A DNA stretch of 64,000 nt from an uncultured Thermoactinomyces sp. Lineage in GTDB: Bacteria > Bacillota > Bacilli > Thermoactinomycetales > Thermoactinomycetaceae. The stretch is taken from NCBI GenBank assembly GCA_965544045.1, contig CBEULT010000007.1, positions 1 through 64,000 of the forward strand, in the 5' to 3' direction. The notes beneath the pieces are model-generated. The model saw nothing but the letters and a program-made list of their open reading frames with translations, was not told where the DNA came from and ran no database searches. A program made the translations under genes and the position numbers. Below, in pieces: positions 19,035 through 55,391 of this stretch (position 1 is the stretch's first letter; each line of letters starts with the position of its first letter).

Positions 19035-19631
19035 ATGGATTTTTACCAAAATTATCGGCAATTAACCTCTTATGAAAAAATTGGCAAAGACTATTCTATT
19101 TCCCTGCGTTTTGCAAAACCGGAAATCGCCGTGCTGGCTATCCATGGCGGGGGAATTGAACCGGGAACGAGCGAGTTGGCCCGGGCCATCGCTGAACCTG
19201 ACTGGAGTTTATATAACTTTCAGGGAGAAAAGAGAAGGGGCAATCACCGGCTCCATATTACATCAACCCATTTTGACGAACCGCATGCCCTGAAAATCGT
19301 GGCAAACTCCTTATCCGTCATCTCCATCCACGGGGCGGAGGGGACGGCGAAGACAATATATCTGGGCGGGCGTGACCGGGAATTGCTCGGAAAAATTAAA
19401 ACAGAGCTCTTTAAAGCTTCATTTCAGGTGAAAACACCACCGCATCATCTGCAAGGCATTGATCCAAGGAATATCATCAATCGGGGGGCAAGTAAACAAG
19501 GGGTACAAATTGAATTGACAGCGGGATTGCGGGCTGATTTTTTCAAGGGGATGGGCAGGTTCGGCCGGCAACACCGGACTCCTTTGTTTTACCGGTTTGT
19601 CCAGGCTGTCCGTGAAGGAATCAGTAACTAA
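19035..19631 (+). CDS. DUF867 / poly-gamma-glutamate hydrolase (PghP, YjqB/YmaC-like) family protein
   Basis: …LAIHGGGIEPGTSELA… and …ISIHGAEG… motifs of the PghP-like zinc amidohydrolase fold. AGAAGGGTGGAG RBS. Confidence 0.6.
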   Translation: MDFYQNYRQLTSYEKIGKDYSISLRFAKPEIAVLAIHGGGIEPGTSELARAIAEPDWSLYNFQGEKRRGNHRLHITSTHFDEPHALKIVANSLSVISIHGAEGTAKTIYLGGRDRELLGKIKTELFKASFQVKTPPHHLQGIDPRNIINRGASKQGVQIELTAGLRADFFKGMGRFGRQHRTPLFYRFVQAVREGISN

Positions 19632-19896
19632 GTGCATCGCACTGCCCCAAAGGTCAAAAAAGATAAAGACAAAATATGGGACAAATCCCGTAGCATAATT
19701 GGGAACTGAACGGGTATTTATACGGCAACTGCCTTTCTGGTCTTTTAAGACAAGGTTGGCACCACTGGCACCTTTTTTACAGATCACCCTGACTCCGAGA
19801 ACCAGCAAGAAGTTTGTCCACTCCTGGTTAAATAGTTTATAACCGACTGGTCAGTAAAAATATCATAATCCTTTCCTGTCCTGCTCAAGAAAGGAT

Positions 19897-20753: not shown

Positions 20754-22541
20754 TCAACCTTTGCTTTCTTTACTGCTTTGGCCCCATCTGAACTGTTGTT
20801 GCACCAGTTTTTGATAAAGCGGATGCCCGCTTAACAACTCCTGATGGGTTCCCTGGCCGGTAATGCGCCCTTCCTCCAGCACAATAATCTTGTCAGCCTC
20901 CACAACTGTTGACAAACGATGGGCAATCACCAGAGTTGTCCGGTCTTTCATCAGATGGTTTAACGCTTCCTGAACCACATGTTCCGAAGTCGAGTCCAGG
21001 CTGGAAGTCGCCTCATCCAGCATCAGAATCCTGGGATCGCGCAAAAGCGCCCGGGCAATGGCAATTCTCTGCCGCTGACCTCCCGACAGCTTTGTTCCCC
21101 GTTCGCCTACATGAGTCTCATATCCTTGCGGCAATTCCTGGATAAATGCATGGGCGTTGGCCAATATGGCCGCATGCACCATTTCCCCATCCGTTACCGT
21201 TTTCTCCAGACCGTAGCAGATATTTTCCCGAATCGTACCGTTGACCAGAGGACTTTCCTGGGAAACATAGCCAAACTGCTGCCGCCATTTCCGCAGCGGG
21301 AAACGTGAGATCGGCGTTTCCCCCAGCCGGATTTCTCCCGCCGTTGGCTGATAAAAGCGCTCCAATAAGGAAAATAACGTGGTTTTCCCGCTCCCGCTCG
21401 GCCCGACAATGGCGGTCACTTTTCCCGGTTCCGCGGAAAAACTCACATCTTCCAATACCAAGTCCTGAGGTACATAACTGAATGAAACGCCATCCACCAC
21501 GATTGGCTGCTCGCTGTCAATCTCCGTTTCTGATCCAGGATCGTCCTCTTCCTCATCCCGCAAAATCTGCTGCAGCCGCTCTGTTGCTCCCAATGCTTTT
21601 TGCAGGCTGGTAAAAAAATGGGTCATTTGCACAAGCGGCATCACTGCCTGGAAAAGATAAAGAAGAAAAGCAACCAGTTCTCCTGCGGTAAGCGCACCAG
21701 TTGCCACACGATATCCCCCGTAACCGATCACTACCACCAGCATCAGCATCATGACAAAAGAAACGAGCGGCTGCAGCCAGGCATAGACCTTCGCTTCTTT
21801 CAACCCATACTGAAACATGCGATCAATCGTCTGCTCCCCATGTTTTTTCTCGACCGGTTCTGCCGTATAGGATTTGACCAGCCGAATTTCACTGATTGCC
21901 TGCGTCAACAGGATAGTGAAATTTGCGATCTGTTTTTGGAGGTTCTTGGAAATACGGTACATCCGTATTCCCATAGGCCGTATAATCGCGAACATCAGCG
22001 GAATCGCAACAAACATGAGCAGTGTCATCGACCAGTCCAGATAAAAAAGAAGAAAAAGGGCACCGATAACATTGATGATTCCGGTAAATAACTGTACCAT
22101 CTGTTGGGAAACGAGTGTCTTTAAAATAACCGTATCGTTGTTAATGCGGCTTACCAATTCGCCCGTATCATTTTCATCAAAATAAGAAACGGGCAGCCGG
22201 AGCGCTTTGCCCCACAATCTTTTCCGTAAACTGGATACTACTTTTTCGCCCAAAAACCCCAAAAGATAAGTTGAAATTCCGCCGGTGACCGCCTGCAGGA
22301 CAAATGCGCCAACCAAAAGAATAAAGACGGAAGCACGCAGATCGCCCACAGTCAGCATATCAACGGTCCCCTTGGTAAACCAGGGAACCAATAACCCGGC
22401 TACTGCTTCCATTATGCTGAAAACCAACACCAACACAATGATTTTTTTCGGCAAATTCGCTCCCTGGATAAATTTCAATAGAGGCCGAATATTCATCCTG
22501 GACAACGAAGGAGCTTGTTGCTCATTCTTCGCTTGTTCCAT
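20754..22541 (-). CDS. ABC transporter, fused permease/ATP-binding (multidrug-exporter type)
   Basis: 6 TM + Walker A GPSGSGKTT, LSGGQRQR, Walker B MLDEATS. Confidence 0.8.
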   Translation of the reverse strand: MEQAKNEQQAPSLSRMNIRPLLKFIQGANLPKKIIVLVLVFSIMEAVAGLLVPWFTKGTVDMLTVGDLRASVFILLVGAFVLQAVTGGISTYLLGFLGEKVVSSLRKRLWGKALRLPVSYFDENDTGELVSRINNDTVILKTLVSQQMVQLFTGIINVIGALFLLFYLDWSMTLLMFVAIPLMFAIIRPMGIRMYRISKNLQKQIANFTILLTQAISEIRLVKSYTAEPVEKKHGEQTIDRMFQYGLKEAKVYAWLQPLVSFVMMLMLVVVIGYGGYRVATGALTAGELVAFLLYLFQAVMPLVQMTHFFTSLQKALGATERLQQILRDEEEDDPGSETEIDSEQPIVVDGVSFSYVPQDLVLEDVSFSAEPGKVTAIVGPSGSGKTTLFSLLERFYQPTAGEIRLGETPISRFPLRKWRQQFGYVSQESPLVNGTIRENICYGLEKTVTDGEMVHAAILANAHAFIQELPQGYETHVGERGTKLSGGQRQRIAIARALLRDPRILMLDEATSSLDSTSEHVVQEALNHLMKDRTTLVIAHRLSTVVEADKIIVLEEGRITGQGTHQELLSGHPLYQKLVQQQFRWGQSSKESKG

Positions 22542-22610
22542 CCGCATCCCCCGTTATATTTATAATGGCAATAATCCACTTTCTCATTATAAATGATTTG
22601 TTTGTTTATG

Positions 22611-22650
22611 GAAAAAAGGCGCCTTCTCCCATAAGGAAAAAGGCGCCTCG
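22611..22650 (-). terminator. Intrinsic terminator downstream of dps-1 (GGCGCCTT…AAGGCGCC hairpin + T-run); a near-copy follows dps-2 at ~26005-26045
   Basis: Read directly. Confidence 0.5.
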
Positions 22651-22664
22651 CTCACTCACCTATA

Positions 22665-23105
22665 TTACCTTGCAGAATATGCTTTTAGCATCCACAGGTG
22701 TTTTTCCAGTTTCGCAAGAAGGCCAATTAGCAGATCTGCTGTAGCAGCATCGCCAATACTTTCTGCTGCCTTGATCGCTTCTCCTGTTTCCCCGGAAATG
22801 GTCTGGAAATCCGCAGCCACCTGCTGTACCATTTGTTCTGTCGTTTCATTTCCAACCGCTTCCTGAATCGTTGCCTGATTCAAATATTCCCGCATCGTGC
22901 TGCCCGGGATTCCCCCGATCGCCAGCAATCGTTCCGCGATCTGGTCAAGGATTAACGCGGCTTCATTGTAAAATTCCTCAAACTTTTGATGGAGTTCAAA
23001 AAACTGATCTCCTTTTACAAACCAATGGTAGTGATGCAGCTTAAAATAGAGGACACTCCAGTTGGCCAATTGTCGATTTAATACCGTTTGCAGATCTTGT
23101 GGCAT
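22665..23105 (-). CDS. dps: Dps-family DNA-protection/ferritin-like protein (MrgA-like), paralogue 1
   Basis: 146 aa. Ferroxidase-centre residues (…HHYHWFVKGDQFFELHQKFEEFY…). Confidence 0.85.
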   Translation of the reverse strand: MPQDLQTVLNRQLANWSVLYFKLHHYHWFVKGDQFFELHQKFEEFYNEAALILDQIAERLLAIGGIPGSTMREYLNQATIQEAVGNETTEQMVQQVAADFQTISGETGEAIKAAESIGDAATADLLIGLLAKLEKHLWMLKAYSAR

Positions 23106-23425
23106 AAATTCCCCTCTTTTCTGTGCAGTTTCTTGCCCCTATTTTTTCCAAAACCATTTTACTCATACATAGTTTTTTATAGAAAAGGCACAAACTTTCA
23201 GCTTCCAATAATTATTCAAACCTGAAATGGGTCTTTTAATAAAAGCAACAGTTGGATTTTGAATATCTTGTGATTATGTATCAATATTTGTATGCTATTT
23301 ACTATTTTTATATAAAGAGCAGAAAATATATTTTCAGTAACTTGAATCCACTTTGTTTGCAAAAAAGTTTTTACGCTTTCTATGGTTAAATAATATTATA
23401 TAAGCTAAAAACACATCATTCCTTT

Positions 23426-25267
23426 TTGTTAAAAAATGAATTTTCAAGGGAATCCGTCTCTGCCCAGGTGTTTGCCACCATCGCCTATTGCCACGTGGTC
23501 AACGCTGTACCGGAACTGGAAGAGCATCTGCCAAAACATGACACTCTGATGCCAAACGCCTGTTACGTATTTCTGGAAGACTGGCTTCGGGATGAGAAAG
23601 GGAGACAGGCGATCAAACCGCTGCTGCGGGAACTGGAGACTTCCTGGGGAATATACGGTCTCCTGAAAGAACTGCCACCGGAAACTGCCGCGGGTTGTAC
23701 CACCTTCCCCATTGCCGATGCGGTGATCCTGGAATACCTGAATGAGATGCTCCTTCATCATACCGTCACCGGACTTCCCCTCCGGGAGATAATCAAAAGG
23801 CAGGCAGGCTCCCCGGGCACAAGGCAGGCGAGAGCAGACAGCCTATGAATTCTGTTCTTACGCATTGCCTCTTGTTACATATAAAGAAGCGGAGCGAAAA
23901 GAGCACTACAAAACGAGCGGTACAGACTGGGTGAAAACCTGTACTGAACACGAATTTCAGATCGATCAGATGTACCGGAAACTGACGTGGATCTGTAACG
24001 AAGCGGGCATGCCGGAAGAATGGTCCGAACTGCGCAACCGGATGACAGAGTGGTACGAAAAGGTATTTTTAACCGGACTTTCCCGGTACATTGACGAACT
24101 GATCAGCAGCGAACGGGCCAGCCACCGGCCAATCCGAGCTGTGAAGCAGCAAACCGGTTTCTTCCGGAATTTTATCCGTCCCATTCTGGACAAAAGCCCG
24201 GAGCGGATCTTTGTCATCATTTCTGATGCCCTGCGGTATGAAGCCGGTATAGAACTGGCGGAAAAACTGCGCAGCCGTCTAAACGCCGACATTTCCACCA
24301 GTCCCATGCAAGCGGCCATTCCCACTTACACCCAGTTGGGCATGGCCTGCCTGCTGCCGGGAACAGTTACCCGAATTGATGACCAGGGAACCGTTTATGT
24401 TGATGGCATCCCCGCACGGGGGGGCTGGCCAACCGGGAGAAAATCCTGCAGAAAGCTGTTCCGGATGCCAAAGCATTCCGTCTGGACGAATTTCTGCAAC
24501 TTGGCAAGGAAGGACTGAAACAGTTTCGGGGGAAACGGGTGGTTTACCTGTACCACAACCAAATTGATGCCAAGGGGGACAACCACACAACAGAAAGCTA
24601 TACCTTTGCCGATGCCCGCCACACTCTGCTCGAACTGGAGCGGGCGGTGGCCAAACTGGCGGGAACATTTGAAGCCAAGCGAATCCTGATTACGGCTGAC
24701 CATAGTTTCCTGTACCAGTATTCGCCAGTACAGGCGGACCAATTGGCAGAACGGGCAAGCTGAACCATCATTGACCAGAACCGCCGCTTTGCCATCGGAC
24801 AGAACCTGAATGTTCCGCCAGGGGCGCAAAAAATCCCCCTTTCCCGGCTAGGCCTGGATGAGTTGGAAGCGGTTGTAGCCAAGGGATTAAACCGGTTCAA
24901 AACAAACGGCGGAATGAAATTTGTGCATGACGGCGCGATGCCCCAGGAAGTGATCGTACCAGTCATCCACTACCGGAAGATTCACGGGCAACGGCGGAAA
25001 CGGCAGGAACAGCGGGTTCCGCGCGCCATCTCCGGACTGCCTTCTACCGGGGATGACCGTATTTCCAATGAAGTGACCATGGTATTTGACCACAGCCAGG
25101 AAGCAACCGAACGCCACACGGAAATTACCTTCGCCCTGATTGAAAACCGCTACCCGCTCGGGGAACCATGTGAACTGCGCCTGGAATACATAACCGGTTC
25201 GAAAACCGTTTTATATGCGGAAGAAGCTTTTGAACCCAGACCGTACGACTATGATTTTAATAAATAA
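23426..25267 (+). pseudogene. Alkaline-phosphatase-superfamily (PglZ-like) gene, GC-rich, disrupted by at least 2 frameshifts and an in-frame TGA
   Basis: Fragments in frames 2/0/2/2. Motifs …IFVIISDALRYEAG…, …YLYHNQIDAKGD…, …ILITADHSF… (metal-binding D/H motifs of the alkaline-phosphatase fold). G7-8 run at 24417-24424 sits at a frame switch. In-frame TGA at 24761-24763. Local GC is clearly above that of the flanking sequence. Confidence 0.45.
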
Positions 25268-26058
25268 CCATCCCGGAAAGGAATATGAACAAAAGCATAA
25301 AAGGTATTCGCCAGCTTTACAAAGCAGAAAACGGAGCCTTCAGGACGACTCCTGAGGGCTTGCCTGGCATAACCGGAAGCCCAACGCACTGAAGGAGACA
25401 TGTATGTAACGGCGCAACAAATAATATTTTACTGGCTTAATTAGAATTTGGGATATCAGCAACTGGTAAGGAGGTGGTTTTCATCTCGTTTAACCATTTG
25501 ATCGCCAGCCACCAGTTGGAGGGCTATAATTATCCCGGATACTCTCCATTGGGAAGCAAGGAAGAAACGGGCACTGACAGACTATGATTTGTCATAGGCC
25601 CATATCCAGATGGGCTAAAGTGAATACCAAAAATCCTGAAAAGCTATTTCGATCCAGATTAACGATCTATTATATTATGGTTGGCATTCTCAATTTGATC
25701 GGCCAAACCTTGGTTCGATACAATTTGCAGGAAGGTCCAGCAATTCAGGAGGGTTTTTACCGTTTTAAGGATGTGGGTAAATTTCTTTGCCTTTTTATTA
25801 ATCATGCCTCTTGTGATCCTTGCTGTCCGGGGAGCCTATCATCTTTTTAGAAGGAATAAAAACAATTCTCCAATATTGGGTATCCTCTTTATTGTGATTG
25901 GGGTTATTCCCGTTACAGCGATTGCTGTTTTTATGCTGTATTGGCTATATATCCTGGTATTTTACGGGTTTGCCCCTTAAAGCTTTTTATTGGCCTGCTT
26001 CGGATCTCACGAAAAAAGGCGCCTTCCTCCCGGGGAAAAAGACGCCTGATTTCTGACT

Positions 26059-26499
26059 TTATTTCGCTGAATATGCTGTCAACATCCAAATATGTTTTTC
26101 CAGTTTTGAAACAAGGCCGGTCAACAGATCTGCCGCAGCAGCATCTCCCGCATTGTCAGCTTCCTTAATGGCTACTTTTGTTTCCTCTGAAATGGTTTTA
26201 AAGTCCTGGATCACTTGTTGTACCATTTCTGCTGCCTTTTCATTTCCTGACGCCTCTTTAATCGTTGCCTTATCCAGAAACTCTTTCATGGTGCTAATTG
26301 GTGCTCCGCCTTTAGCCAGCAAAAATTCTGCAATCTGATCAAGGGTTAAAGCGGCTTCATTGTAAAATTCCTCAAACTTTTGATGGAGCTCGAAAAACTG
26401 ATCTCCTTTTACAAACCAATGATAGTGATGCAGCTTAAAATAGAGGACACTCCAGTTCGCCAATTGTCGATTTAATACCGTTTGCAGGTCTTGTTGCAT
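26059..26499 (-). CDS. dps: Dps-family protein, paralogue 2 (5' ~190 bp near-identical to dps-1)
   Basis: The first ~51 residues are identical to paralogue 1 and the rest ~60% identical. Same AAGAGGGGA RBS. Confidence 0.85.
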   Translation of the reverse strand: MQQDLQTVLNRQLANWSVLYFKLHHYHWFVKGDQFFELHQKFEEFYNEAALTLDQIAEFLLAKGGAPISTMKEFLDKATIKEASGNEKAAEMVQQVIQDFKTISEETKVAIKEADNAGDAAAADLLTGLVSKLEKHIWMLTAYSAK

Positions 26500-26863
26500 G
26501 AACTCCCCTCTTTTCAAAGCAGTTTCTTGCCTCTGTATCCCGAAACCATAACTCTTAAACAGGATTTATTGCAAAGAGGCATAAAATAGTTTCTAATATT
26601 TATTTTAACACTAAAAACAAGTCATTTTATACAATAAATCTAAATATCCTTGAATTTTTATTGAAATTAGTAATATTTGTTAATATTTTCAACATAAATA
26701 TTAAAAAAACAAACAATTGATATGAAATGACACAGGATTAAAGACTCCCTAACTGAGTATTTTCCAACTTCGTGCATTCCATGAGCTCTTGTTACATCTG
26801 CTTCAACATCTGGACATTTCCCAGCAAAAAAGTTATAATGCTTTTTAGCTGTCCATTGATTAT

Positions 26864-26940
<77 letters not shown>

Positions 26941-27270
26941 AACCTTTAAATACGCGGAGTTTGACGATTTTTAACCGGTTTTTGACCGCGTGAAACCGTG
27001 AAATTTTCGTGTATAACCGCTTGATAACCGCTACCTGAACCGTTGGCATACGGTAAGGACAAGCGGTTATTTTTTGGCTAAAAAGTCATTTTCCCGGGAA
27101 TGTAAAAACGTTCAATGTCCAAATGAGAACAGCGGTAAGAAACGATATTAATATAATCAGGCAATCAATGATACTTACACATCCGTGAAAAGTTGAACAA
27201 ATAACGAAAAAATGGCGACATACCTTTTATTATTGAGGAATACAGGGAACAATAATAGGGGGTGTACAAA

Positions 27271-27483
27271 ATGGAAAAGTATATTTTTGACAAGGAAGAA
27301 ATAAAGCACTTTGTTTGTGCCAATTGTTCAAGGATAAAAGAGACTGACGAATATGTTGATTTATACGAGTGTGAAGGCTGTGGCACTTTTGTATCTGAAG
27401 CGGCATTAGAAGAACTTAAAAAGTACAATGTTTGTGAAGACGAGAACATTCATTTTGTAGAATCGGAAATGCTCAAGAATTAA
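27271..27483 (+). CDS. Small zinc-ribbon protein (CxxC-x17-CxxC), hypothetical
   Basis: 70 aa with AGGGGGTG RBS. A-U-rich hairpin + T-run after the stop. Confidence 0.45.
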   Translation: MEKYIFDKEEIKHFVCANCSRIKETDEYVDLYECEGCGTFVSEAALEELKKYNVCEDENIHFVESEMLKN

Positions 27484-27735
27484 AGAGCTTAACCGAAAAA
27501 AGGGGCCTCAGCGCTTCCTTTTTTCTTTCGCAGGCTTTCAGATGAATTTTCCAATATTTGGAAAATTATTTCATCTTAAGAACTCCCCGCATAAATTGTG
27601 TTACAGTCGCAATTTATCTCCGGTAAGGGAGTTTAACCTCCGTTTATATAAAAAGGACCGGTTTTCCATGAACCAGTCCTTGATTATAACTATAATCCAA
27701 ATAAATTAATGTAATAAATATACCAATACTAACCA

Positions 27736-28335: not shown

Positions 28336-28564
28336 GGATTTAATCCGACCCCTTTAAGATTGGTTTCTGAATCTTCGAATTCGATTATATCATAATTTAT
28401 AATATGAAAATATACCGATTAGTCGGTTTTTTAATACCACCTCGCAATTTTTACACTAAGACACAATGTTTGTTTTCTTGGTGTGAGAGAAATATTTATT
28501 ATTCAACAAACGAAAGAATCGATGGTTCATGATGACATTGTTGGAACCGATAAAAGGAAAGAGA

Positions 28565-46039: not shown

Positions 46040-48487
46040 TTATTTATTCGTTTCTGTTTCTGTTTCTTCATCGACAGCACGGACAATGGCGACGGCAGAT
46101 ACTTCATCATCATCAACGCGAATCAGGCGAACCCCCTGTGCATACCTGCCCATCACGGAGATATCTGCCACATTGAGCCGAATGACGACGCCTGACCAGG
46201 TAACCAGCATCAGATCTTCCTGTTCAGATACCACTTTATGCGCGACTACTTCACCTTTTTTCTCGGTTAAACTGAGTGTTTTAATTCCTTTGCCTCCGCG
46301 CGATTGTATACGGTATTCTTCAAGCGGTGTCCGTTTGCCGTAACCGTTTTGGGTTACAATCATAACATGGTTTTCAGGGAGAACAATATCCATGTCAATG
46401 ACACGATCCCCGTCGCCCAGGGTAATTCCTTTTACTCCCGTTGCCGAGCGCCCCATCTCTCTTACGTCCATCTCATGGAAACGAATTGACATTCCATGTT
46501 GTGTGCCCATAATCACTTCCTGATCCCCGTCAGTCAGGCGGACACCAACCAAATCGTCGCCATCCCGCAAATTAATCGCGAACAAACCGTTGCGGCGGAT
46601 ATTTTCAAACTCGCTCAACGCAGTCTTTTTGACAACGCCATATGCTGTTGCAAAGAAGAGATACTGGTCAGGACGGAACTCTTGTACAGGAATAACGGCT
46701 TCAATCCGTTCATCCTGGTCAATTTGAACCAGGTTGATGATCGGAGTTCCTTTGGCTGTTCTGCCCAATTCCGGAACTTCATATGCTTTCAGACGATAAA
46801 CTTTCCCTTTGTTAGAGAAGAAAAGAAGCTGGCTATGCGAATTGGTGACAAACATGTGCTGCACCAAATCATTCTCGCGGGTTCCCATTCCGGTGATCCC
46901 TTTTCCGCCCCTTTTCTGCGCACGGTAAGTGGATAACGGCATCCGCTTGATATAGCCTCTTTGCGTAAGCAAGATGGACACTTCTTCATCCGGGATAAGA
47001 TCTTCGGCTTCAATGCTGTCTGCCTCGATCTTGATCATTGTGCGCCGGTCATCTCCGTATTTATCCCTGATATCCATGATTTCCCTGCGCAGAACCCCGC
47101 GGATTTTCGCTTCATCGGAAAGGATGTCCCGCAGTTTGGCGATCAATTTCTGCAACTCTTCATACTCGGCTTCAATCTTTTCGCGTTCCAATCCGGTCAG
47201 ACGATGCAGCCTCATGTCGAGAATTGCCTGTGCCTGCCGTTCGGAAAGCTTGAACCGCTCCATTAATCCTGTTCTTGCTTCCTGGGTGGTTTTGGAAGCC
47301 CGAATCAGGTTGATTACTTCATCAATATAATCCAGTGCTATCCGAAGACCTTCCAAAATGTGCGCGCGTTCCTCAGCTTTGTTCAGATCAAATTGCGTGC
47401 GGCGCCGGATAACCTCTATCTGATGTTCGATATAATGGTAAATTGCCTGTTGCAAATTCAGGACACGAGGTTGCTCATTAACCAGCGCCAGCATGTTTAC
47501 ACCAAAACTGGTTTGCAGGTTTGTGTGTTTATACAGGTTATTCAAGACAATACGCGGATTGACATCCCTGCGAAGCTCTATAACCACACGCATTCCTTTC
47601 CGGTCTGATTCATCGCGCAGATCAGTAATCCCGTCAACTTTTTTATCACGTACCAGATGGGCAATCTTTTCCACCAATTTGGATTTGTTGACTTGATATG
47701 GAAGTTCCTCAACAACAATGCGCATCTTTCCATTGCCGGCCTCTTCAATCCGTGTCTTTGCCCGAATATGAATACTCCCGCGACCTGTGCGAAACGCCTT
47801 GCGAATTCCTTCAACTCCCAGAATAATGCCGCCGGTCGGGAAGTCCGGCCCTTTCACAACCTTCATCAGTTCTTCAATCGTAACCTCCGGATTATCCAGC
47901 ATCATAAGGATACCATCAATCACTTCCCGCAAATTATGAGGCGGAATGTTTGTTGCCATCCCCACTGCAATTCCCGAGGCTCCGTTGACAAGCAAATTGG
48001 GAAAGCGGGCAGGAAGAACAACCGGTTCTTCCTGCTGACCATCGTAGTTAGGAATAAAATTAATCGTCTCTTTCTGAATGTCCCTCAGCAATTCCAGATT
48101 AATCGGTGCCATTCTTGCTTCTGTATAACGCATGGCGGCAGGAGGATCTCCGTCAACGGATCCAAAGTTTCCATGGCCATCCACCAATGGATAGCGATAA
48201 GAAAAGTCCTGCGCCATCCGGACCATAGCTTCGTAAACAGCCACATCCCCGTGAGGATGGTAATTGGCGCAAACATTACCGACTAAACGCGACGACTTTT
48301 TATAAGGTTTGTCAGGGGTCATCCCCAACTCATACAAGGTATATAAAATACGGCGATGAACCGGTTTTAAGCCATCTCGGACGTCTGGCAATGCCCGGCT
48401 GACAATGACGCTCATCGCATAGTCCAAAAAGGAGGACTTCATTTCCTTACTGATATTTACTTCCTGAATACGCTGAATCTCTGCCAT
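46040..48487 (-). CDS. gyrA: DNA gyrase subunit A
   Basis: 815 aa. …[26 protein letters not shown]… active-site Tyr region. Confidence 0.95.
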
Positions 48488-48529
48488 TGTTTCATCTCCC
48501 GTTCTACACTCGCCTGACCGCTTTTTCGC

Positions 48530-50449
<1,920 letters not shown>

Positions 50450-50482
50450 TCACCTGCTTCCTTCTACCAAAACTGATGAACT

Positions 50483-50728
50483 TTACTTCCATATTTTTTG
50501 ACTATGATCCGCCCTTTTTTTCAGCGTTGTTGAAGAAATAGGCGAAGCATAAACATGATTTGGGGTAACAACATATGACTTGATTTGATCTGGAGATATG
50601 TGCTCTGTCCCGTTCCATTTTTGCAGGTTAATCATTGAATTGGCCGCATTTTTTGCTACATCGGCATCCAAAATTGCAATTACTTCCCGAATACGAATCA
50701 TTCGACTGCCACCCAGATGGATAAACAC
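50483..50728 (-). CDS. remB: DUF370/RemB (YaaB)-family small protein
   Basis: 81 aa, between recF and gyrB as in Bacillus. Confidence 0.55.
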   Translation of the reverse strand: MFIHLGGSRMIRIREVIAILDADVAKNAANSMINLQKWNGTEHISPDQIKSYVVTPNHVYASPISSTTLKKRADHSQKIWK

Positions 50729-50732
50729 TCGA

Positions 50733-51851
50733 TCACCCCGATTCCATGATATGTCCTTGCCTTACCTGGTAAATCTTCGTTCGCGATAATATATCTGAAT
50801 CAATCCCGTCCAAACTGGTTGTCGTAATGAAAGTTTGCACACGTCCCCGAATCGCTTCCAGCAAGTGTGCCTTGCGCGCATCGTCCAATTCAGACAACAC
50901 ATCGTCTAATAATAAAATGGGATAATAACCAATCTCCTGGTAAATCAATTCGATTTCAGCAAGTTTTAACGACAGGGCAGCAGTACGCTGCTGACCCTGG
51001 GAACCATAAAGGTGCAAATCGATATCCCCGACAAATAACCGGAGATCATCACGTTGCGGGCCAATGGTCGTACTGCCGCGCATAAGCTCCTTTTGCCGGT
51101 TTTTTTTCAGTTCCGACTTCAGAACAGCCGCCCATCCGTCAGGTCCGGCATCTTCCGGCAAAGGAACAGAAGGAAGATATTTAATAACCAGCTTTTCCTT
51201 TTGCCGTGTAATGGTCTGATGAATTTCCTGTGCCCATTTTGACAGCGAGTCCAGGAATCGATATCTTTTCTCCAGCAGTGCGACAGATAAGGTCACGAAT
51301 TGTTCATCCAGTATATCCAGAAAAGGAAAATCCCCCTCCTTTGTTTGTGCAAGCTGCTTTAACAAGCTGTTCCTCTGAGGCAACAACTTGTTTAATTGCG
51401 ACAGATTATGCACATATCGGGGGCTTACCTGGCCAATCTCCATGTCCAAAAAACGCCGACGGACCTGCGGACTCCCTTTAACCAGGGAAAGGTCCTCCGG
51501 CGCAAAGAGGACAGCAGGCAGCGAGCCGATATATTGACTCAATCTCTTTTTTTCAATCCCGTTACGGCTCACTTTTTTTCCTTTTTCCGATAAACTGATT
51601 TCCAGACGTTGGATCTCTTCTCCTTTTTTTACTCGTGCTTTAATCAGTGATCGCTTTTGGCCAAAACGGACAAGTTCTTTATGAGAACGCGTACGGTGCG
51701 ATTTACCGAGTGCAAGGACATACAAGGACTCGAGAATGTTTGTTTTTCCCTGGGCATTGGGACCAACAAAAAAATGAAGCTCCTCCGGACATTGAAGGTA
51801 AAGTTCACTGATATTCCGATAGTGCTTCAATTCCAGCGTTTGCACACGCAA
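50733..51851 (-). CDS. recF: DNA replication and repair protein RecF
   Basis: Walker A GPNAQGKTN. C-terminal signature/Walker B …LLLDDVLSELD…. Confidence 0.9.
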   Translation of the reverse strand: MRVQTLELKHYRNISELYLQCPEELHFFVGPNAQGKTNILESLYVLALGKSHRTRSHKELVRFGQKRSLIKARVKKGEEIQRLEISLSEKGKKVSRNGIEKKRLSQYIGSLPAVLFAPEDLSLVKGSPQVRRRFLDMEIGQVSPRYVHNLSQLNKLLPQRNSLLKQLAQTKEGDFPFLDILDEQFVTLSVALLEKRYRFLDSLSKWAQEIHQTITRQKEKLVIKYLPSVPLPEDAGPDGWAAVLKSELKKNRQKELMRGSTTIGPQRDDLRLFVGDIDLHLYGSQGQQRTAALSLKLAEIELIYQEIGYYPILLLDDVLSELDDARKAHLLEAIRGRVQTFITTTSLDGIDSDILSRTKIYQVRQGHIMESG

Positions 51852-51865
51852 AATGAGATCCTCCC

Positions 51866-52081
51866 TTACTCGCTGACTACCATCACAATCCCGAGCCCGG
51901 AAATTTCCACCTGATCCTGAGGATAGATCTTTCTTCCTCGCCTTGTCTCCAGTTCACCATTGACTTTAATCTCTTCTTCCTGCAAAAGGAATTTGGCCTG
52001 TCCGCCGCTTGAAATCACATTCAGAAGTTTCAGGAGCTGTCCCAAAGTAATGTATGGTTTATCAATTTTTATCAATTTCAA
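51866..52081 (-). CDS. yaaA: S4-domain RNA-binding protein YaaA
   Basis: 71 aa S4-like domain. Position between dnaN and recF. Confidence 0.7.
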   Translation of the reverse strand: MKLIKIDKPYITLGQLLKLLNVISSGGQAKFLLQEEEIKVNGELETRRGRKIYPQDQVEISGLGIVMVVSE

Positions 52082-52111
52082 TAATAAAGCCTCCCTGGTG
52101 CGAGAGTTCTT

Positions 52112-53245
52112 CTAGCGGGTGCGAATCGGAACAATCAGATGGAGTGAATCTTCCCGATCAGTTGGCTGGATCAAAAACGGTGTCATCGCTCCAGTGAATT
52201 GAATACGTATTTCGTCACTTTCGATGGAGCGCAGAGCTTCCATCATATAGCGGGCATTGAAAGAAATACTCAGTTCAGGGCCATTCACCTTTGCATCAAC
52301 CTCTTCAGACACACTTCCGATATCCTGGGCTTTGGAGTTTACCTCCAGTTTTCCGTCTCTTAAGGTCCATTTTATCACATTATCCCGACCATCCCGGCTA
52401 ATTAAAGATGCTCGATCAACAGATTGTAACAATTCTTTGGTAGAAGAAACAAGTTCTGTATCCCCTTGTTTGGGAATAACCCGGTTTGTATCCGGATATG
52501 TGCCTTCTAACAAGCGTGAATAAAATGACAGTTCTTCCGTTTTGACAAGGATCTGGTTTTCTGCAACCAGGATATCCACATATCCAGAGTAGTCACCCAA
52601 TGTTTTGGCCAGTTCTGACAGACTTTTCCCCGGAACAATCACATTCTTGAGAGTGATTTCTTCAGAACCTTCCACCTGGGCATGCTGTCTGGACAAACGG
52701 TGACTGTCTGTCGCGACACAGACAAGTTCGCCTGCCTCCAATTGTATCATAACACCAGTCAATACCCCGCGGGCTTCATTGGTTGCTACCGCAAATCCTG
52801 TTTGCCGGATGAGCGATTTCAGGATATCTGCTGATATGCTAAACATTTTATCTGTGGACAAGTGAGGCAAACGGGGAAATTCAACAGGATCCAGCCCATT
52901 CAGCTGAAATTGGGCTGTTTCTGAACGGATTGTTGTTTGGAATTTTTCACTGACAACCCATTCCACTTCTTTTCCAGGCAATTTCCGGACCAGATCTCCG
53001 ACAATTCGCCCAGGAAGTACCACACTACCCATTTTTTCCATAAATACTTGTTCCAAGTCGTCTTTTCTGGCAGGAACATGCACTTGAATGGAAATATCGG
53101 AATTACTTCCTGTAAGTGTTAATCCTTCTTCATCCACAGCTATTTTGATTCCTGTAAGTATGGGAATAGTGGTCTTGGAAGAAACAGCTTTGGAAACTTG
53201 TGACACTGCATCAACCAAGGCTGATTTTGTTACGCGAAACTTCAT
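52112..53245 (-). CDS. dnaN: DNA polymerase III beta sliding clamp
   Basis: 377 aa, three-domain beta clamp. Confidence 0.9.
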   Translation of the reverse strand: MKFRVTKSALVDAVSQVSKAVSSKTTIPILTGIKIAVDEEGLTLTGSNSDISIQVHVPARKDDLEQVFMEKMGSVVLPGRIVGDLVRKLPGKEVEWVVSEKFQTTIRSETAQFQLNGLDPVEFPRLPHLSTDKMFSISADILKSLIRQTGFAVATNEARGVLTGVMIQLEAGELVCVATDSHRLSRQHAQVEGSEEITLKNVIVPGKSLSELAKTLGDYSGYVDILVAENQILVKTEELSFYSRLLEGTYPDTNRVIPKQGDTELVSSTKELLQSVDRASLISRDGRDNVIKWTLRDGKLEVNSKAQDIGSVSEEVDAKVNGPELSISFNARYMMEALRSIESDEIRIQFTGAMTPFLIQPTDREDSLHLIVPIRTR

Positions 53246-53471
53246 ATCGATCCTCCTTGTTTAATGAAACTCCTTTTTGGAAAAACTGGATACAGGGAAG
53301 AATAAACCGGAGTCATGATACATATATATTTTTTATAAATGCAGTAGTAATAATAGTAGGGCCTGTGGATAATGTGGATAAGCCTTGCCAGGCAAGGTGT
53401 GGCACCTTTTTGCACCTGTGGAAAACATGTGCATATGCGTGTAACGATTATCCACACTATTCACAGAGGCA
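53246..53471. promoter_or_regulatory. oriC downstream module: AT-rich DNA-unwinding element (~53318-53360) plus DnaA boxes (TGTGGATAATGTGGATAAG 53363-53381, TGTGGAAAA, TTATCCACA)
   Basis: Read directly between dnaA and dnaN. Confidence 0.7.
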
Positions 53472-54821
53472 TCATTCGTATTGGATTCGTTTCTTTAACT
53501 GATTGACGACATTTTCCAATTGATGATCTTCTTTAAGAAGCCGGCTGATTTTTTCATGGGCGTGAATCACGGTTGTATGGTCACGTCCACCAAAGTCTTC
53601 CCCGATTTTGGGCAATGAAAACTCCGTCAGTTCCCGGCACAGATACATGGCAATCTGTCTTGGAAAAGCTACCGACTTGGTTCGCTTTTTACTTTTAAAA
53701 TCCTCTATGCGAAGTTGATAATAGTTGCATACTGTTTGTTGAATATCTTGAATGCTTATCCTTTTTGGCTTTGAATCCGGCATGATATCTTTCAGTGCTT
53801 CAAGAGCCAGTTCCGTGGAGACAGGTTGTTTGAGAAGGGCTGAATAAGCAACAACCCGGATCAGCGCACCTTCCAGTTCACGGATGTTTGTATCAACACG
53901 GTTGGCTATGTAGATCAGCACTTCATTTGGAACCTCTAAATTATCAGCTATCGCTTTCTTCCGCAAGATTGCGATTCTCGTCTCCAGGTCCGGAGGTTGC
54001 ACATCAGTAATCAGCCCCCATTCAAACCGGGAACGAAGCCGATCCTCCAGAGTGGGAATTTCCTTGGGAGGTCGGTCACTGGAAATGATGATTTGTTTGT
54101 TTGCTTCATGCAAGGCATTAAAGGTATGGAAAAATTCTTCCTGTGTCTGTTCTTTTCCCGCCAGAAACTGAATATCATCAATTAACAGGATATCCACAGA
54201 CCGGTATTTGTTCCGGAACTGGATCGTTTTGTTGTCACGGATTGAATTGATAAAATCATTGGTAAACTTCTCGGAGGAAATATAGACAACCTTGCTTGAA
54301 GCGGAATGCTTCAGGACATAATGCCCGATAGCATGCATCAAGTGGGTTTTTCCCAATCCTACTCCCCCATAGATAAATAAAGGGTTGTATGCCTTGGCAG
54401 GTGCTTCAGCCACTGCAAGAGAGGCCGCATGGGCAAACCGGTTTCCGGAGCCGATTACAAATGTATCAAAAGTATAGCGCGGATTCAGCTGGGCCCCCTG
54501 GTCTTTTTCAGTTTCCTGGACAGTATCTGCTTTTTTTTCAGGCTCCGCCTCCGGTTCAGTTGCGTTTTTTTCTGTATGGCTGACAAATTTTACCCCTAGT
54601 TTGGCTCCCCCTGTCACTTCTTTCAAAGTATCGCGAACCAGATCGGCGTAGCGCGATTCCAGCCAGTCCCGGGCAAAATCATTGGGAGCGCAGACGATCA
54701 GGATATCATCTTCCAGATCGATGGCTTCTGTTGCCTTTAACCATGTTTCAAAACTGGGCTTGCTTATTCTTTTCTGAATAGCTTTCAAGGCTTTGGACCA
54801 TAATTCTTGGATGTGAATCAC
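53472..54821 (-). CDS. dnaA: Chromosomal replication initiator DnaA
   Basis: Start GTG (…[11 protein letters not shown]…) with AAGGAAGGGGG RBS. AAA+ Walker [12 protein letters not shown]-terminal DnaA-box-binding domain. About 449 aa. Confidence 0.9.
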
Positions 54822-55391
54822 CCGAAGAACCCCCTTCCTTACAATGTTATGAACAAACTTATCCACAGGAAAAACTTCATAATTACCAAGGTTGGACTTA
54901 TTTATCAACAATATCCACAAGCTGTGGAAAACAATATCCACAGCTTGTGTTTTAATCATTCTGCAGATATCCACAGGTGTGGATATCTGCAGAATGAATA
55001 CTGTATTTATCCACAAGAAAACAAGAATAGGATATCAAAATAACCATGTGTTTACAATGGAAAATAGTAAGTTATCCACAATTTGTCACGTTAGAAACAT
55101 TTTTTTTCCACAGCTGTGTATGTTGTGGATAACTCGTGGATAAGTTTTGGATAGGAAGTGGATAACGAGAAAAATATCCACATGTGGATAAACATTCTGC
55201 TGCGGTTCCTTTTCTTGACATGCATTGTAAGTCGCCGCTATAATGATAGAGATTGTCCACGGTTTCATTACTGGACTTGAATGAAAGAAGGGAGGTATCC
55301 TGGTGCTGTTCACTGTCTTTTGGCAACTGTTGGGATTCATGGGCGGATCGGTTGTCAAAACGGGAACATAAGGCTGACCAGGTGACTTTAA
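54822..55391. promoter_or_regulatory. oriC upstream module / dnaA-rpmH promoter region with at least 10 DnaA boxes including palindromic pairs (GATATCCACAGGTGTGGATATC; ATATCCACATGTGGATAAA)
   Basis: TTATCCACA/TGTGGATAA matches at ~54859, 54911, 54935, 54967-54988, 55007, 55071, 55124, 55135, 55158 and 55175-55193. Confidence 0.75.

What the first reader, a model, noticed from the sequence alone, without database searches (positions are those of the whole stretch)
23426..25267. GC-rich, multiply disrupted PglZ-like (alkaline-phosphatase superfamily) gene: remnant of a defence-type (BREX-like) or signalling phosphatase module
Four ORF fragments in frames 2/0/2/2 together read as one ~610-aa protein with alkaline-phosphatase-fold metal-site motifs (ISDALRYE; HNQIDAKGD; ITADHS). 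There is a G7-8 run at a frame switch (24417-24424) and an in-frame TGA (24761-24763). GC content is much higher than the rest of the window, which indicates horizontal origin. PglZ-domain proteins are hallmark components of BREX and related phage-defence systems. None of the partner genes (PglX, BrxC, etc.) is present, so this looks like a decayed island.
Basis: partly seen in the sequence, partly recalled or inferred. Interest (0 to 1): 0.5.

Follow-up and report, generated by a model that had tools for sequence, protein, structure and literature searches.

The report
Decayed BREX-1 pglZ pseudogene remnant
This is the broken 3' two-thirds of a pglZ gene from a type 1 BREX anti-phage system, left between two dps genes of a Thermoactinomyces chromosome after the rest of the system was lost; it is an ordinary pseudogene and almost certainly does nothing now.

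Summary
Window 23438-25267 (+) reads, after frame correction, as residues ~214-855 of a BREX-1 type A PglZ. It scores 333.9 bits against NCBIfam TIGR02687 (cut-off 270) and E 4e-44 against Pfam PF08665. It is 58% identical to PglZ of Melghirimyces profundicolus, which sits in an intact brxA-brxB-brxC-pglX-pglZ operon.

The gene is dead. The first ~213 codons, the start codon and the upstream operon are missing. There are two frameshifts ((AGGC)3 at 23798-23809; G7 at 24418-24424), a TGA replacing an invariant Gly (24761-24763) and a 93-nt in-frame deletion (25018/25019).

The host is a Thermoactinomyces. One relative (L006) has an empty site between the same two dps genes. Another (L007) carries an orthologous, shorter remnant with different lesions. 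Window-to-L007 substitutions are nearly even across codon positions (12/14/20%, against 12/5/33% in the neighbouring ABC gene).

The remnant has the highest GC in the window (52.9% vs 43.3%).

Low interest; known kind.

The parts
23202..26015 (.). Island: DNA present between the two dps genes in the window but absent from the empty site of relative L006
   Evidence: blastn and alignment of window against L006 and L007. L006 has only ~115-150 nt between the two dps genes.
23249..23437 (.). AT-rich filler (GC ~0.25) between the shared left junction and the start of pglZ homology; no detectable homology
   Evidence: Composition. Not alignable to L007 or L006. Six-frame translation is full of stops.
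23438..23809 (+). pglZ remnant, piece 1 (frame 2): reference residues ~214-345. The 5' end is truncated: no start codon, N-terminal BrxB-binding domain and most of the central domain are missing
   Evidence: tblastn with P0001: 23465-23833 = aa 228-350. Homology extends to ~23438 by eye against 6 homologues. Domain map from PMC12205998.
23798..23809 (+). Frameshift 1 (+1 or +4 nt) inside an (AGGC)3 repeat; the reading frame moves from 2 to 0
   Evidence: Sequence. Frame change is located by overlapping tblastn segments at 23808-23833. Removing 1 nt gives KRQAAPRAQ, which aligns with KRLTAPWAQ of P0001.
23808..24420 (+). pglZ remnant, piece 2 (frame 0): reference residues 343-548, including the start of the PglZ/alkaline-phosphatase domain (ISDALRYE, PTYTQLGM)
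   Evidence: tblastn, 59% identity; Pfam PF08665 covers conceptual residues 261-436.
24418..24424 (+). Frameshift 2: G7 homopolymer; the frame moves from 0 back to 2
   Evidence: Orthologous L007 reads in frame as CGG GGC CTG (R G L), so the window gained 2 nt here.
24422..25267 (+). pglZ remnant, pieces 3 and 4 (frame 2): reference residues 548-855 through the natural stop (TAA 25265-25267); holds HNQIDAKGD, ITADHS, FVHDGAMPQE and the C-terminal beta-barrel region
   Evidence: tblastn, 59% identity.
24761..24763 (+). In-frame TGA replacing a Gly that is >=95% conserved in 45 intact PglZ proteins
   Evidence: G662X in P0001 numbering. L007 has GGA at this codon.
25018..25019 (+). Junction of a 93-nt in-frame deletion (reference residues 748-778, start of the C-terminal beta-barrel)
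   Evidence: 31-residue gap in the tblastn alignment. L007 still carries the deleted segment (VDIRVAMRSKVITNYQFHVVFFEEQKVSEDFRPRHIR).
25286..25560 (+). Probable pglX-like 5' relic. Its ATG lies 19 nt after the pglZ stop, behind GGAAAGGAA. It reads MNKSIKG...TPEGLPGIT...EVVFISFNHLIASHQLEGYNYP, with two in-frame stops and indels. Weak evidence
   Evidence: tblastn with PglX of L001, L002, L115 and L117 gives E 1e-6 to 6e-4 against the 748-nt tail and 1e-3 against the whole window. A clade HMM ranks it as the top six-frame hit of the window, E 0.005. Smith-Waterman score is 77 against 24.6 +/- 4.1 for shuffles (0 of 2000 reach it). Against: no hit with PADLOC, NCBIfam or a broad PglX-N HMM.
25561..26015 (.). 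Rest of the island; no recognisable homology. Contains a 69-aa hydrophobic ORF at 25771-25980
   Evidence: Pfam on ORFs and on six-frame translations gives nothing significant. No plasmid or phage DNA match.
22665..23105 (-). dps paralogue 1 (left flank of the island)
   Evidence: ORF; PF00210 ferritin-like on orthologues.
26059..26517 (-). dps paralogue 2 (right flank); the island ends at its terminator (26017-26047)
26864..26940 (+). tRNA-Arg(CCU), 350 nt beyond dps2; nearby, but not the insertion point
   Evidence: ARAGORN; Rfam RF00005 at 66.6 bits.

Best explanation
The feature is a non-functional relic of a type 1 BREX phage-defence island. An ancestor of this Thermoactinomyces lineage acquired a BREX-1 locus in the short spacer between two tandem dps genes. 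The locus was of the brxL-less brxA-brxB-brxC-pglX-pglZ kind seen in other Thermoactinomycetaceae. Deletion later removed brxA to pglX and the first ~213 codons of pglZ. What remained drifted: two slippage frameshifts at short repeats, one nonsense mutation, a 93-nt deletion, and substitutions at invariant glycines (DHG to DHS, HGG to HDG). In an intact system PglZ is the metal-dependent phosphodiesterase/nuclease. It docks on BrxB through its N-terminal domain and is needed for restriction (PMC12205998). Here the docking domain, the start codon, the operon promoter and every partner are gone, so no defence activity is expected. Shown: family identity, the lesions, the empty and occupied sites in relatives, and relaxed constraint. 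Inferred: the composition of the ancestral island, the order of events, and lack of expression.
For: Family identity:
- TIGR02687 scores 333.9 bits (cut-off 270.35) over profile positions 225-737 of 844.
- PF08665 scores E 4e-44; PADLOC PglZ scores E 2.5e-124.
- 239 homologues were found. The best is 58% identical (Melghirimyces profundicolus); Paludifilum halophilum is 54%.
- Solved PglZ structures 9nv3_C and 9zn5_B match at E 8e-56 and 5e-50.

Lesions were mapped with tblastn.

Context:
- The closest intact homologues lie in brxA-brxB-brxC-pglX-pglZ operons.
- tblastn with those operons' proteins finds no other BREX gene in the window at E <= 1e-3, apart from the weak pglX-like relic.
- The 10 largest other ORFs give no defence hits; the single PADLOC match is the ATPase domain of a histidine kinase.

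Comparison with relatives:
- L006 (MAG GCA_049587175.1) has TetR-dps-dps-ABC with no insert.
- L007 (Logan SRR29050543) has an orthologous remnant. Window 24060-25007 is 83.4% identical to it, and the two share the left junction.
- Every window lesion in the shared part is absent from L007, which has its own TAG and 1-nt deletions.

Relaxed constraint:
- Window-to-L007 differences by codon position are 12.3/14.3/19.7% in the remnant. They are 12.2/4.7/32.8% in the ABC exporter and similarly skewed in 7 other flanking genes.
- 8 of 111 columns that are >=95% conserved among 45 intact PglZ are changed in the window, and 16 of 88 in L007.

Foreign origin: GC is 0.529 against 0.433 for the window; pglZ of the relatives is 0.55-0.56.
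Against: - The window copy still keeps 103 of 111 conserved positions. That is at the upper edge of the range seen in intact proteins (0-9 changes), so the amino-acid sequence alone would not prove decay. The verdict rests on the truncation, frameshifts, stop and deletion.
- No relative with an intact island at this site was found, so the composition of the ancestral island is inferred.
- The pglX-like relic lies downstream of pglZ, which does not fit the canonical operon order.
- Only 64 kb is visible. An intact BREX elsewhere in the genome cannot be excluded.
- Expression was not tested.
Confidence: 0.93

Rival explanations
1. The gene is intact in the cell, and the disruptions are sequencing or assembly errors (homopolymer miscalls and the like).
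For: One lesion sits in a G7 homopolymer and another in an (AGGC)3 repeat. Both are error-prone contexts. The amino-acid sequence is still well conserved.
Against: The TGA is a base substitution, and a 93-nt deletion is not a homopolymer error. The 5' ~640 nt of the gene, and brxA, brxB, brxC and an intact pglX, are simply absent. An independently assembled relative (L007) has an orthologous remnant that is even more broken. Substitutions are spread almost evenly over codon positions.
Confidence: 0.02
2. The remnant still makes a useful product. It could be a truncated stand-alone PglZ-domain phosphodiesterase, produced through frameshifting at the G run and TGA read-through. Or the G run could act as a phase-variation switch.
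For: The metal-site residues themselves (D of ISDALRYE, T of PTYTQLGM, H of DHS, H of HDG, QE) are still present. A sigma-70-like site lies at 23370-23399, 9 of 12 matches. Remnant divergence from L007 (15%) is lower than the third-position divergence of neighbouring genes (25-35%).
Against: Expression would need two frameshift events, a stop read-through and a non-native start. The G run is not conserved: L007 has GGGGC, in frame. The lesions differ between lineages. Codon-position pattern shows relaxed constraint. Invariant glycines next to the metal ligands are replaced. PglZ needs its BREX partners, and the BrxB-docking N-terminal domain is missing (PMC12205998). The promoter-like match is no better than shuffled-sequence expectation (12 found against 6.8 +/- 2.7 region-wide).
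Confidence: 0.03
3. The gene belongs to a different alkaline-phosphatase-fold family (PorX-like signalling phosphatase, phosphopentomutase, nucleotide pyrophosphatase) rather than to BREX.
For: The fold and metal-site motifs are shared across the superfamily. No intact BREX partner is adjacent.
Against: The only Pfam family at E <= 0.01 is PglZ. The BREX-1 type A equivalog model passes its curated cut-off over ~510 profile positions, including regions outside the catalytic domain. All 120 listed homologues are full-length ~830-860-aa PglZ proteins. Where a source names them, the names are BREX-1 PglZ type A or TIGR02687 family, with a few generic ones such as 'DNA repair protein'. The nearest homologues sit in BREX-1 operons.
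Confidence: 0.01
4. The two lineages did not inherit one decaying island. Window and L007 acquired related BREX islands separately, or exchanged the island after they split, and then lost them in parallel. The dps-dps spacer would then be a recurrent defence-island hotspot.
For: No internal lesion is shared between window and L007. Remnant divergence (15.4%) is below the third-position divergence of 8 flanking genes (25-35%). A more degraded pglX-like relic in non-canonical order lies next to the better-preserved pglZ. That could be debris from an earlier occupant.
Against: Window and L007 share the same left junction (~47 nt beyond the L006 breakpoint) and a 12-nt motif near the right junction, which favours a single insertion. 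Locally aligned intergenic DNA is 9-23% divergent, so 15% is not clearly anomalous. Only three genomes are available.
Confidence: 0.15

Closest known systems
BREX type 1 PglZ (BrxZ), type A - NCBIfam TIGR02687 / Pfam PF08665; characterised in E. fergusonii and Salmonella (PMC12205998); solved structures 9nv3_C and 9zn5_B
   Same: Sequence family: above the curated cut-off. Central and C-terminal architecture is the same. Metal-site motifs are present: D-x-x-R-Y-E, P-[ST]-Y-T-Q-L-G-M, H-N-x-I-D-x-x-G-D, D-H-G, H-G-G-x-x-x-Q-E. The natural C-terminus is retained.
   Different: Not an intact gene. It lacks residues 1-~213, which include the BrxB-binding N-terminal domain. It has two frameshifts, one stop, a 31-residue deletion in the C-terminal beta-barrel, and DHG to DHS and HGG to HDG changes. 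It has no functional partners.
brxL-less BREX-1 loci of Thermoactinomycetaceae (Melghirimyces profundicolus NZ_QBKR01000030.1 = L001; Paludifilum halophilum NZ_NOWF01000005.1 = L002)
   Same: These hold the closest named PglZ proteins (58% and 54% identity). They are from the host's own family and have similar high GC (0.55-0.56). They are the likely model for the ancestral island.
   Different: Those loci are complete (brxA, brxB, brxC, pglX, pglZ), with pglX upstream of pglZ. The window keeps only part of pglZ, plus a doubtful pglX-like 5' piece downstream of it.
Orthologous remnant in a related Thermoactinomyces (L007, Logan SRR29050543 contig 16503)
   Same: Same site between the dps paralogues, same left junction, and 83.4% nucleotide identity over window 24060-25007.
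   Different: Shorter: reference residues ~428-795. It has a different set of lesions (TAG, three 1-nt deletions, D483A). It retains the 93 nt, the Gly codon and the in-frame GGGGC that the window has lost or altered.

Membership tests
BREX-1 PglZ type A (TIGR02687) | Score above the curated NCBIfam equivalog cut-off | tested here: met
   333.9 bits against a cut-off of 270.35, on the frame-corrected translation.
BREX-1 PglZ type A (TIGR02687) | PglZ (alkaline-phosphatase-fold) domain, PF08665 | tested here: met
   E 4.1e-44, 151 bits, profile positions 1-178 of 179.
BREX-1 PglZ type A (TIGR02687) | Uninterrupted ORF of ~830-860 codons, including the N-terminal BrxB-binding domain | tested here: not met
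   Only profile positions 225-737 and reference residues ~214-855 are present. There are two frameshifts, one TGA and a 93-nt deletion.
BREX-1 PglZ type A (TIGR02687) | Conserved metal-binding and nucleophile residues (equivalents of T538 and H741 of E. fergusonii PglZ) | tested here: inconclusive
   The Thr of PTYTQLGM and the His of DH[G>S] are retained. The adjacent invariant Gly residues are replaced: G643S and G717D in P0001 numbering. Correspondence to T538/H741 is by motif only; the numbering was not verified.
Type 1 BREX system | Co-located brxA, brxB, brxC, pglX and pglZ (with or without brxL) | tested here: not met
   tblastn with all five proteins of L001 and all ORFs of L001, L002 and L005 finds only pglZ, plus a ~90-codon pglX-like relic. 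PADLOC on the 10 largest other ORFs gives no defence hit.
Type 1 BREX system | Site-specific m6A methylation of the host genome and phage exclusion | not testable with these tools
   Needs a methylome and phage assays.
Pseudogene / decaying island | Relaxed selective constraint compared with neighbouring genes | tested here: met
   Codon-position divergence from L007 is 12.3/14.3/19.7% in the remnant. Third positions are 25-35% and second positions 2-11% in 8 flanking genes.
Pseudogene / decaying island | Empty site or differently decayed copies in relatives | tested here: met
   L006 is empty. L007 has an orthologous remnant with independent lesions.

The most novel reading that the evidence does not exclude
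The spacer between the tandem dps paralogues may be a recurrent defence-island hotspot in Thermoactinomyces. The pglZ-then-pglX juxtaposition would then record one of three things: debris of two successive BREX-like occupants, a tandem duplication of pglX-pglZ, or an undescribed BREX-1 variant with a PglX-like methyltransferase gene downstream of pglZ.
Probability: 0.12. Interest if true: 0.3.

Novelty: already known. Interest (0 to 1): 0.1.

Why it matters
It matters little in itself. Decaying defence genes are a common by-product of the fast turnover of defence islands. The practical value is for annotation. The four ORFs at 23426-25267 should be called one pglZ pseudogene, not four hypothetical proteins. 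The strain should not be scored as BREX-positive on a PglZ domain hit. The three-state comparison (empty site, long remnant, short remnant) is a small, clean example of how a BREX island is lost piecemeal. It also marks the dps-dps spacer near oriC as a variable spot in this genus.

Tried and rejected
- Source genome or close relatives in GTDB representative genomes: found only Melghirimyces, Paludifilum, two lactobacilli and a Kroppenstedtia fragment. The window's own species was not returned.
- Exact look-ups of Dps1 and of the T. mirandus Dps: not on record.
- Metagenome scans with back-translated P-T-Y-T-Q-L-G-M-A patterns: the first found nothing. The second gave 106 loci, but the best PglZ there is only 42-49% identical, so no closer intact relative and no intact island at this site.
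- blastn of the island against plasmid and phage collections: no match.
- Rfam on 22400-27600: only tRNA-Arg.
- Pfam on ORFs and six-frame translations of 25520-26020: nothing significant.
- pglX-like relic: no hit in PADLOC, NCBIfam, a broad 17-sequence PglX N-terminal HMM or the large protein database. It is supported only by BLAST, a 4-sequence clade HMM and a shuffle test, so it is reported as weak.
- tRNA-Arg as integration site: rejected. The island ends at the dps2 terminator, ~850 nt before the tRNA.
- Deletion by dps-dps recombination as the origin of the empty site: rejected. L006 keeps both dps genes.
- Target-site duplication: the two candidate 15-mers match at only 9 of 15 positions, so it is not claimed.
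- Structure prediction: not run, because sequence evidence was decisive.

Full report
**Observation.**
They lie at 23426-23848, 23865-24518, 24539-24763 and 24863-25267 on the + strand, in frames 2/0/2/2. The quoted motifs are present. The G run is G7 at 24418-24424, and the in-frame TGA is at 24761-24763. GC of the segment is 0.529 against 0.433 for the window. That is the highest of any same-sized window (next best 0.502; z = 2.4).

**Identity.**
The frame-corrected translation (612-615 aa) matches only one Pfam family, PglZ PF08665 (E 4e-44).
- It passes the curated cut-off of NCBIfam TIGR02687, 'BREX-1 system phosphatase PglZ type A' (333.9 against 270.35 bits). All other BREX PglZ types fall far below their cut-offs.
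- PADLOC PglZ models give E down to 2.5e-124.
- The match covers profile positions 225-737 of 844, so the N-terminal quarter is missing.
- A database search returned 239 homologues, essentially all full-length 830-860-aa PglZ proteins. The best are 58% (Melghirimyces profundicolus) and 54% (Paludifilum halophilum) identical.
- Two solved PglZ structures, 9nv3_C and 9zn5_B, match at E 8e-56 and 5e-50.

**Anatomy of the damage.**
tblastn with the 855-aa Melghirimyces protein splits the remnant into three collinear pieces:

| Window coordinates | Frame | Reference residues |
|---|---|---|
| 23465-23833 | 2 | 228-350 |
| 23808-24422 | 0 | 343-548 |
| 24422-25249 | 2 | 548-854 |

Homology can be followed by eye back to ~23438, about residue 214. 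Upstream of that is ~190 nt of 25%-GC DNA with no homology.

The lesions are:
1. Loss of the first ~213 codons and of the start codon.
2. A +1 (or +4) frameshift inside (AGGC)3 at 23798-23809.
3. A frameshift in the G7 run.
4. TGA replacing a Gly that is at least 95% conserved in 45 intact PglZ proteins.
5. A 93-nt in-frame deletion at 25018/25019 that removes reference residues 748-778.
6. Replacement of invariant glycines next to the metal ligands: DHG to DHS and HGG to HDG.

The published domain map gives an N-terminal BrxB-binding domain, a central domain, a large C-terminal metal-binding domain and a terminal beta-barrel (PMC12205998). Against that map, the remnant lacks the BrxB-docking domain and most of the central domain. 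It is also damaged in the beta-barrel.

**Host and context.**
Exact look-ups of the window's DnaN and GyrA place them in 90%-identity clusters with proteins of a Thermoactinomyces MAG and T. mirandus. The window is the oriC region (dnaA, dnaN, gyrB, gyrA).

The remnant lies between two tandem, co-oriented dps paralogues (22665-23105 and 26059-26517, both on the - strand). tRNA-Arg(CCU) is 350 nt further on. The neighbours are ordinary genes: an ABC exporter, TetR regulators, an amino-acid permease and asparagine synthase. The ten largest other ORFs are housekeeping or metabolic genes and give no defence-system hit. The single PADLOC match is the ATPase domain of a histidine kinase.

tblastn with every ORF of the Melghirimyces, Paludifilum and Kroppenstedtia loci found no further BREX gene at E <= 1e-3.

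**Relatives.**
Homologues of Dps2 led to two related Thermoactinomyces contigs.
- **L006 (MAG GCA_049587175.1):** syntenic (TetR-dps-dps-ABC) at 80-85% nucleotide identity. It has only ~115-150 nt between the dps genes, so it is an empty site. This defines the island in the window as 23202-26015.
- **L007 (Logan SRR29050543):** carries an orthologous remnant between the same genes. Window 24060-25007 aligns at 83.4% identity, and L007 continues through the 93 nt that the window has lost.

Window and L007 share the left junction (~47 nt beyond the L006 breakpoint) and a 12-nt motif before the dps2 terminator. This favours a single ancestral insertion.

Every window lesion inside the shared part is absent from L007. 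L007 reads CGG GGC CTG in frame at the G run, GGA at the TGA codon, and has DHG and HGG intact. It has its own TAG, three 1-nt deletions and D483A. So the two copies decayed independently after the lineages split.

**Selection.**
Differences between window and L007, by codon position:

| Sequence | Position 1 | Position 2 | Position 3 |
|---|---|---|---|
| pglZ remnant | 12.3% | 14.3% | 19.7% |
| ABC exporter | 12.2% | 4.7% | 32.8% |
| dps1 | 8.2% | 4.1% | 27.2% |

Six more flanking genes are similarly skewed. The near-flat profile of the remnant shows relaxed constraint. The small third-position excess (my chi-square estimate gives p ~0.03) suggests at most a short coding period after the split.

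Conserved-column changes are 8 of 111 in the window and 16 of 88 in L007, against 0-9 in intact controls. The window copy is therefore the younger-looking wreck.

**Model of the ancestral island.**
The closest intact homologues all sit in brxA-brxB-brxC-pglX-pglZ operons without brxL (PADLOC on L001; tblastn on L002; Pfam context of L115 and L117). Lack of brxL is unremarkable: about a quarter of type 1 loci lack it (PMC12839542). pglZ in these loci has GC 0.55-0.56. The remnant's high GC therefore fits acquisition from a GC-richer member of the host's own family.

**An addition to the finding.**
An ORF start (ATG 25286, preceded by GGAAAGGAA) lies 19 nt after the pglZ stop. It opens a stop-riddled reading of ~90 codons that resembles the N-terminus of that clade's PglX: MNK..., AF..TPEGLP.IT, EV....FN.LIA....E..NY.

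Evidence for:
- tblastn gives E 1e-6 to 6e-4 against the 748-nt tail and 1e-3 against the whole window, for four PglX orthologues.
- A 4-sequence clade HMM makes it the best six-frame hit in the window (E 0.005).
- 0 of 2000 shuffles reach its Smith-Waterman score (77 against 24.6 +/- 4.1).

Evidence against:
- PADLOC, NCBIfam, a broad PglX N-terminal HMM and the large protein search all give nothing.

I rate it probable but weak. Its position downstream of pglZ is non-canonical. It is also far more diverged (26-36%) than pglZ (54-59%). It could be older debris, a paralogous methyltransferase gene, or a tandem-duplication junction. This remains unexplained.

**Verdict.**
This is a 5'-truncated, multiply disrupted BREX-1 type A pglZ pseudogene, the last recognisable piece of a lost defence island. 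Sequencing error cannot account for it: there are five independent lesions, the operon is missing, and an orthologous wreck appears in an independent assembly. Retained function is very unlikely. The kind of object is well known, and interest is low. The only mildly open points are the odd pglX-like relic and whether the dps-dps spacer is a recurrent insertion hotspot.

Noticed in passing
window 22611-23227 and 26011-26616: The two tandem dps paralogues are mosaic. The 5' ~170 nt of the coding sequence plus the leader are ~97% identical. The 3' two-thirds are only ~70% identical. Their terminators are nearly the same. This looks like partial gene conversion between paralogues.
   Followed up: partly
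L005 8170-10169 (Kroppenstedtia guangzhouensis NZ_BMEX01000002.1): A second, independent decayed BREX-1 in another Thermoactinomycetaceae genome. It has pglX residues 813-1173 in two frames, followed by pglZ residues 2-283 in three frames and then truncation.
   Followed up: partly
window 25771-25980 (+): A 69-aa strongly hydrophobic ORF (2-3 predicted TM segments) inside the island. It has no family match beyond a sub-threshold Phage_holin_3_7 hit (E 0.02). The ribosome-binding site is poor. Whether it is a real gene is unknown.
   Followed up: partly
window 19624-19842 and 28336-28564: The surrounding region varies between relatives. L007 has a 650-aa DUF3533/ABC-2 (YhgE/Pip-like) gene between the TetR gene and the poly-gamma-glutamate hydrolase gene, which the window lacks. 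L006 has a PF04199 cyclase gene between TetR and the permease, which the window also lacks.
   Followed up: no
window 23228-23242 and 26001-26015: Degenerate 15-nt direct repeat at the two ends of the island (TCTTTTAATAAAAGC / TCTCACGAAAAAAGG, 9 of 15 matching). Each copy resembles the single TCTTTTCGTAAAAGG in the empty site of L006. It is compatible with a target duplication but too weak to claim.
   Followed up: partly
window 46040-55016; GC-skew change near 55000: The window spans the chromosomal replication origin region: gyrA, gyrB, dnaN and dnaA on the - strand, with the cumulative GC skew turning at ~55 kb. The lost island therefore sat ~30 kb from oriC.
   Followed up: no
window 24060-25007 vs L007: Remnant divergence between the two lineages (15.4%) is lower than the third-position divergence of eight flanking genes (25-35%). 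It is within the range of locally aligned intergenic DNA (9-23%). This could hint at later exchange of the island between lineages, or it could mean nothing.
   Followed up: partly
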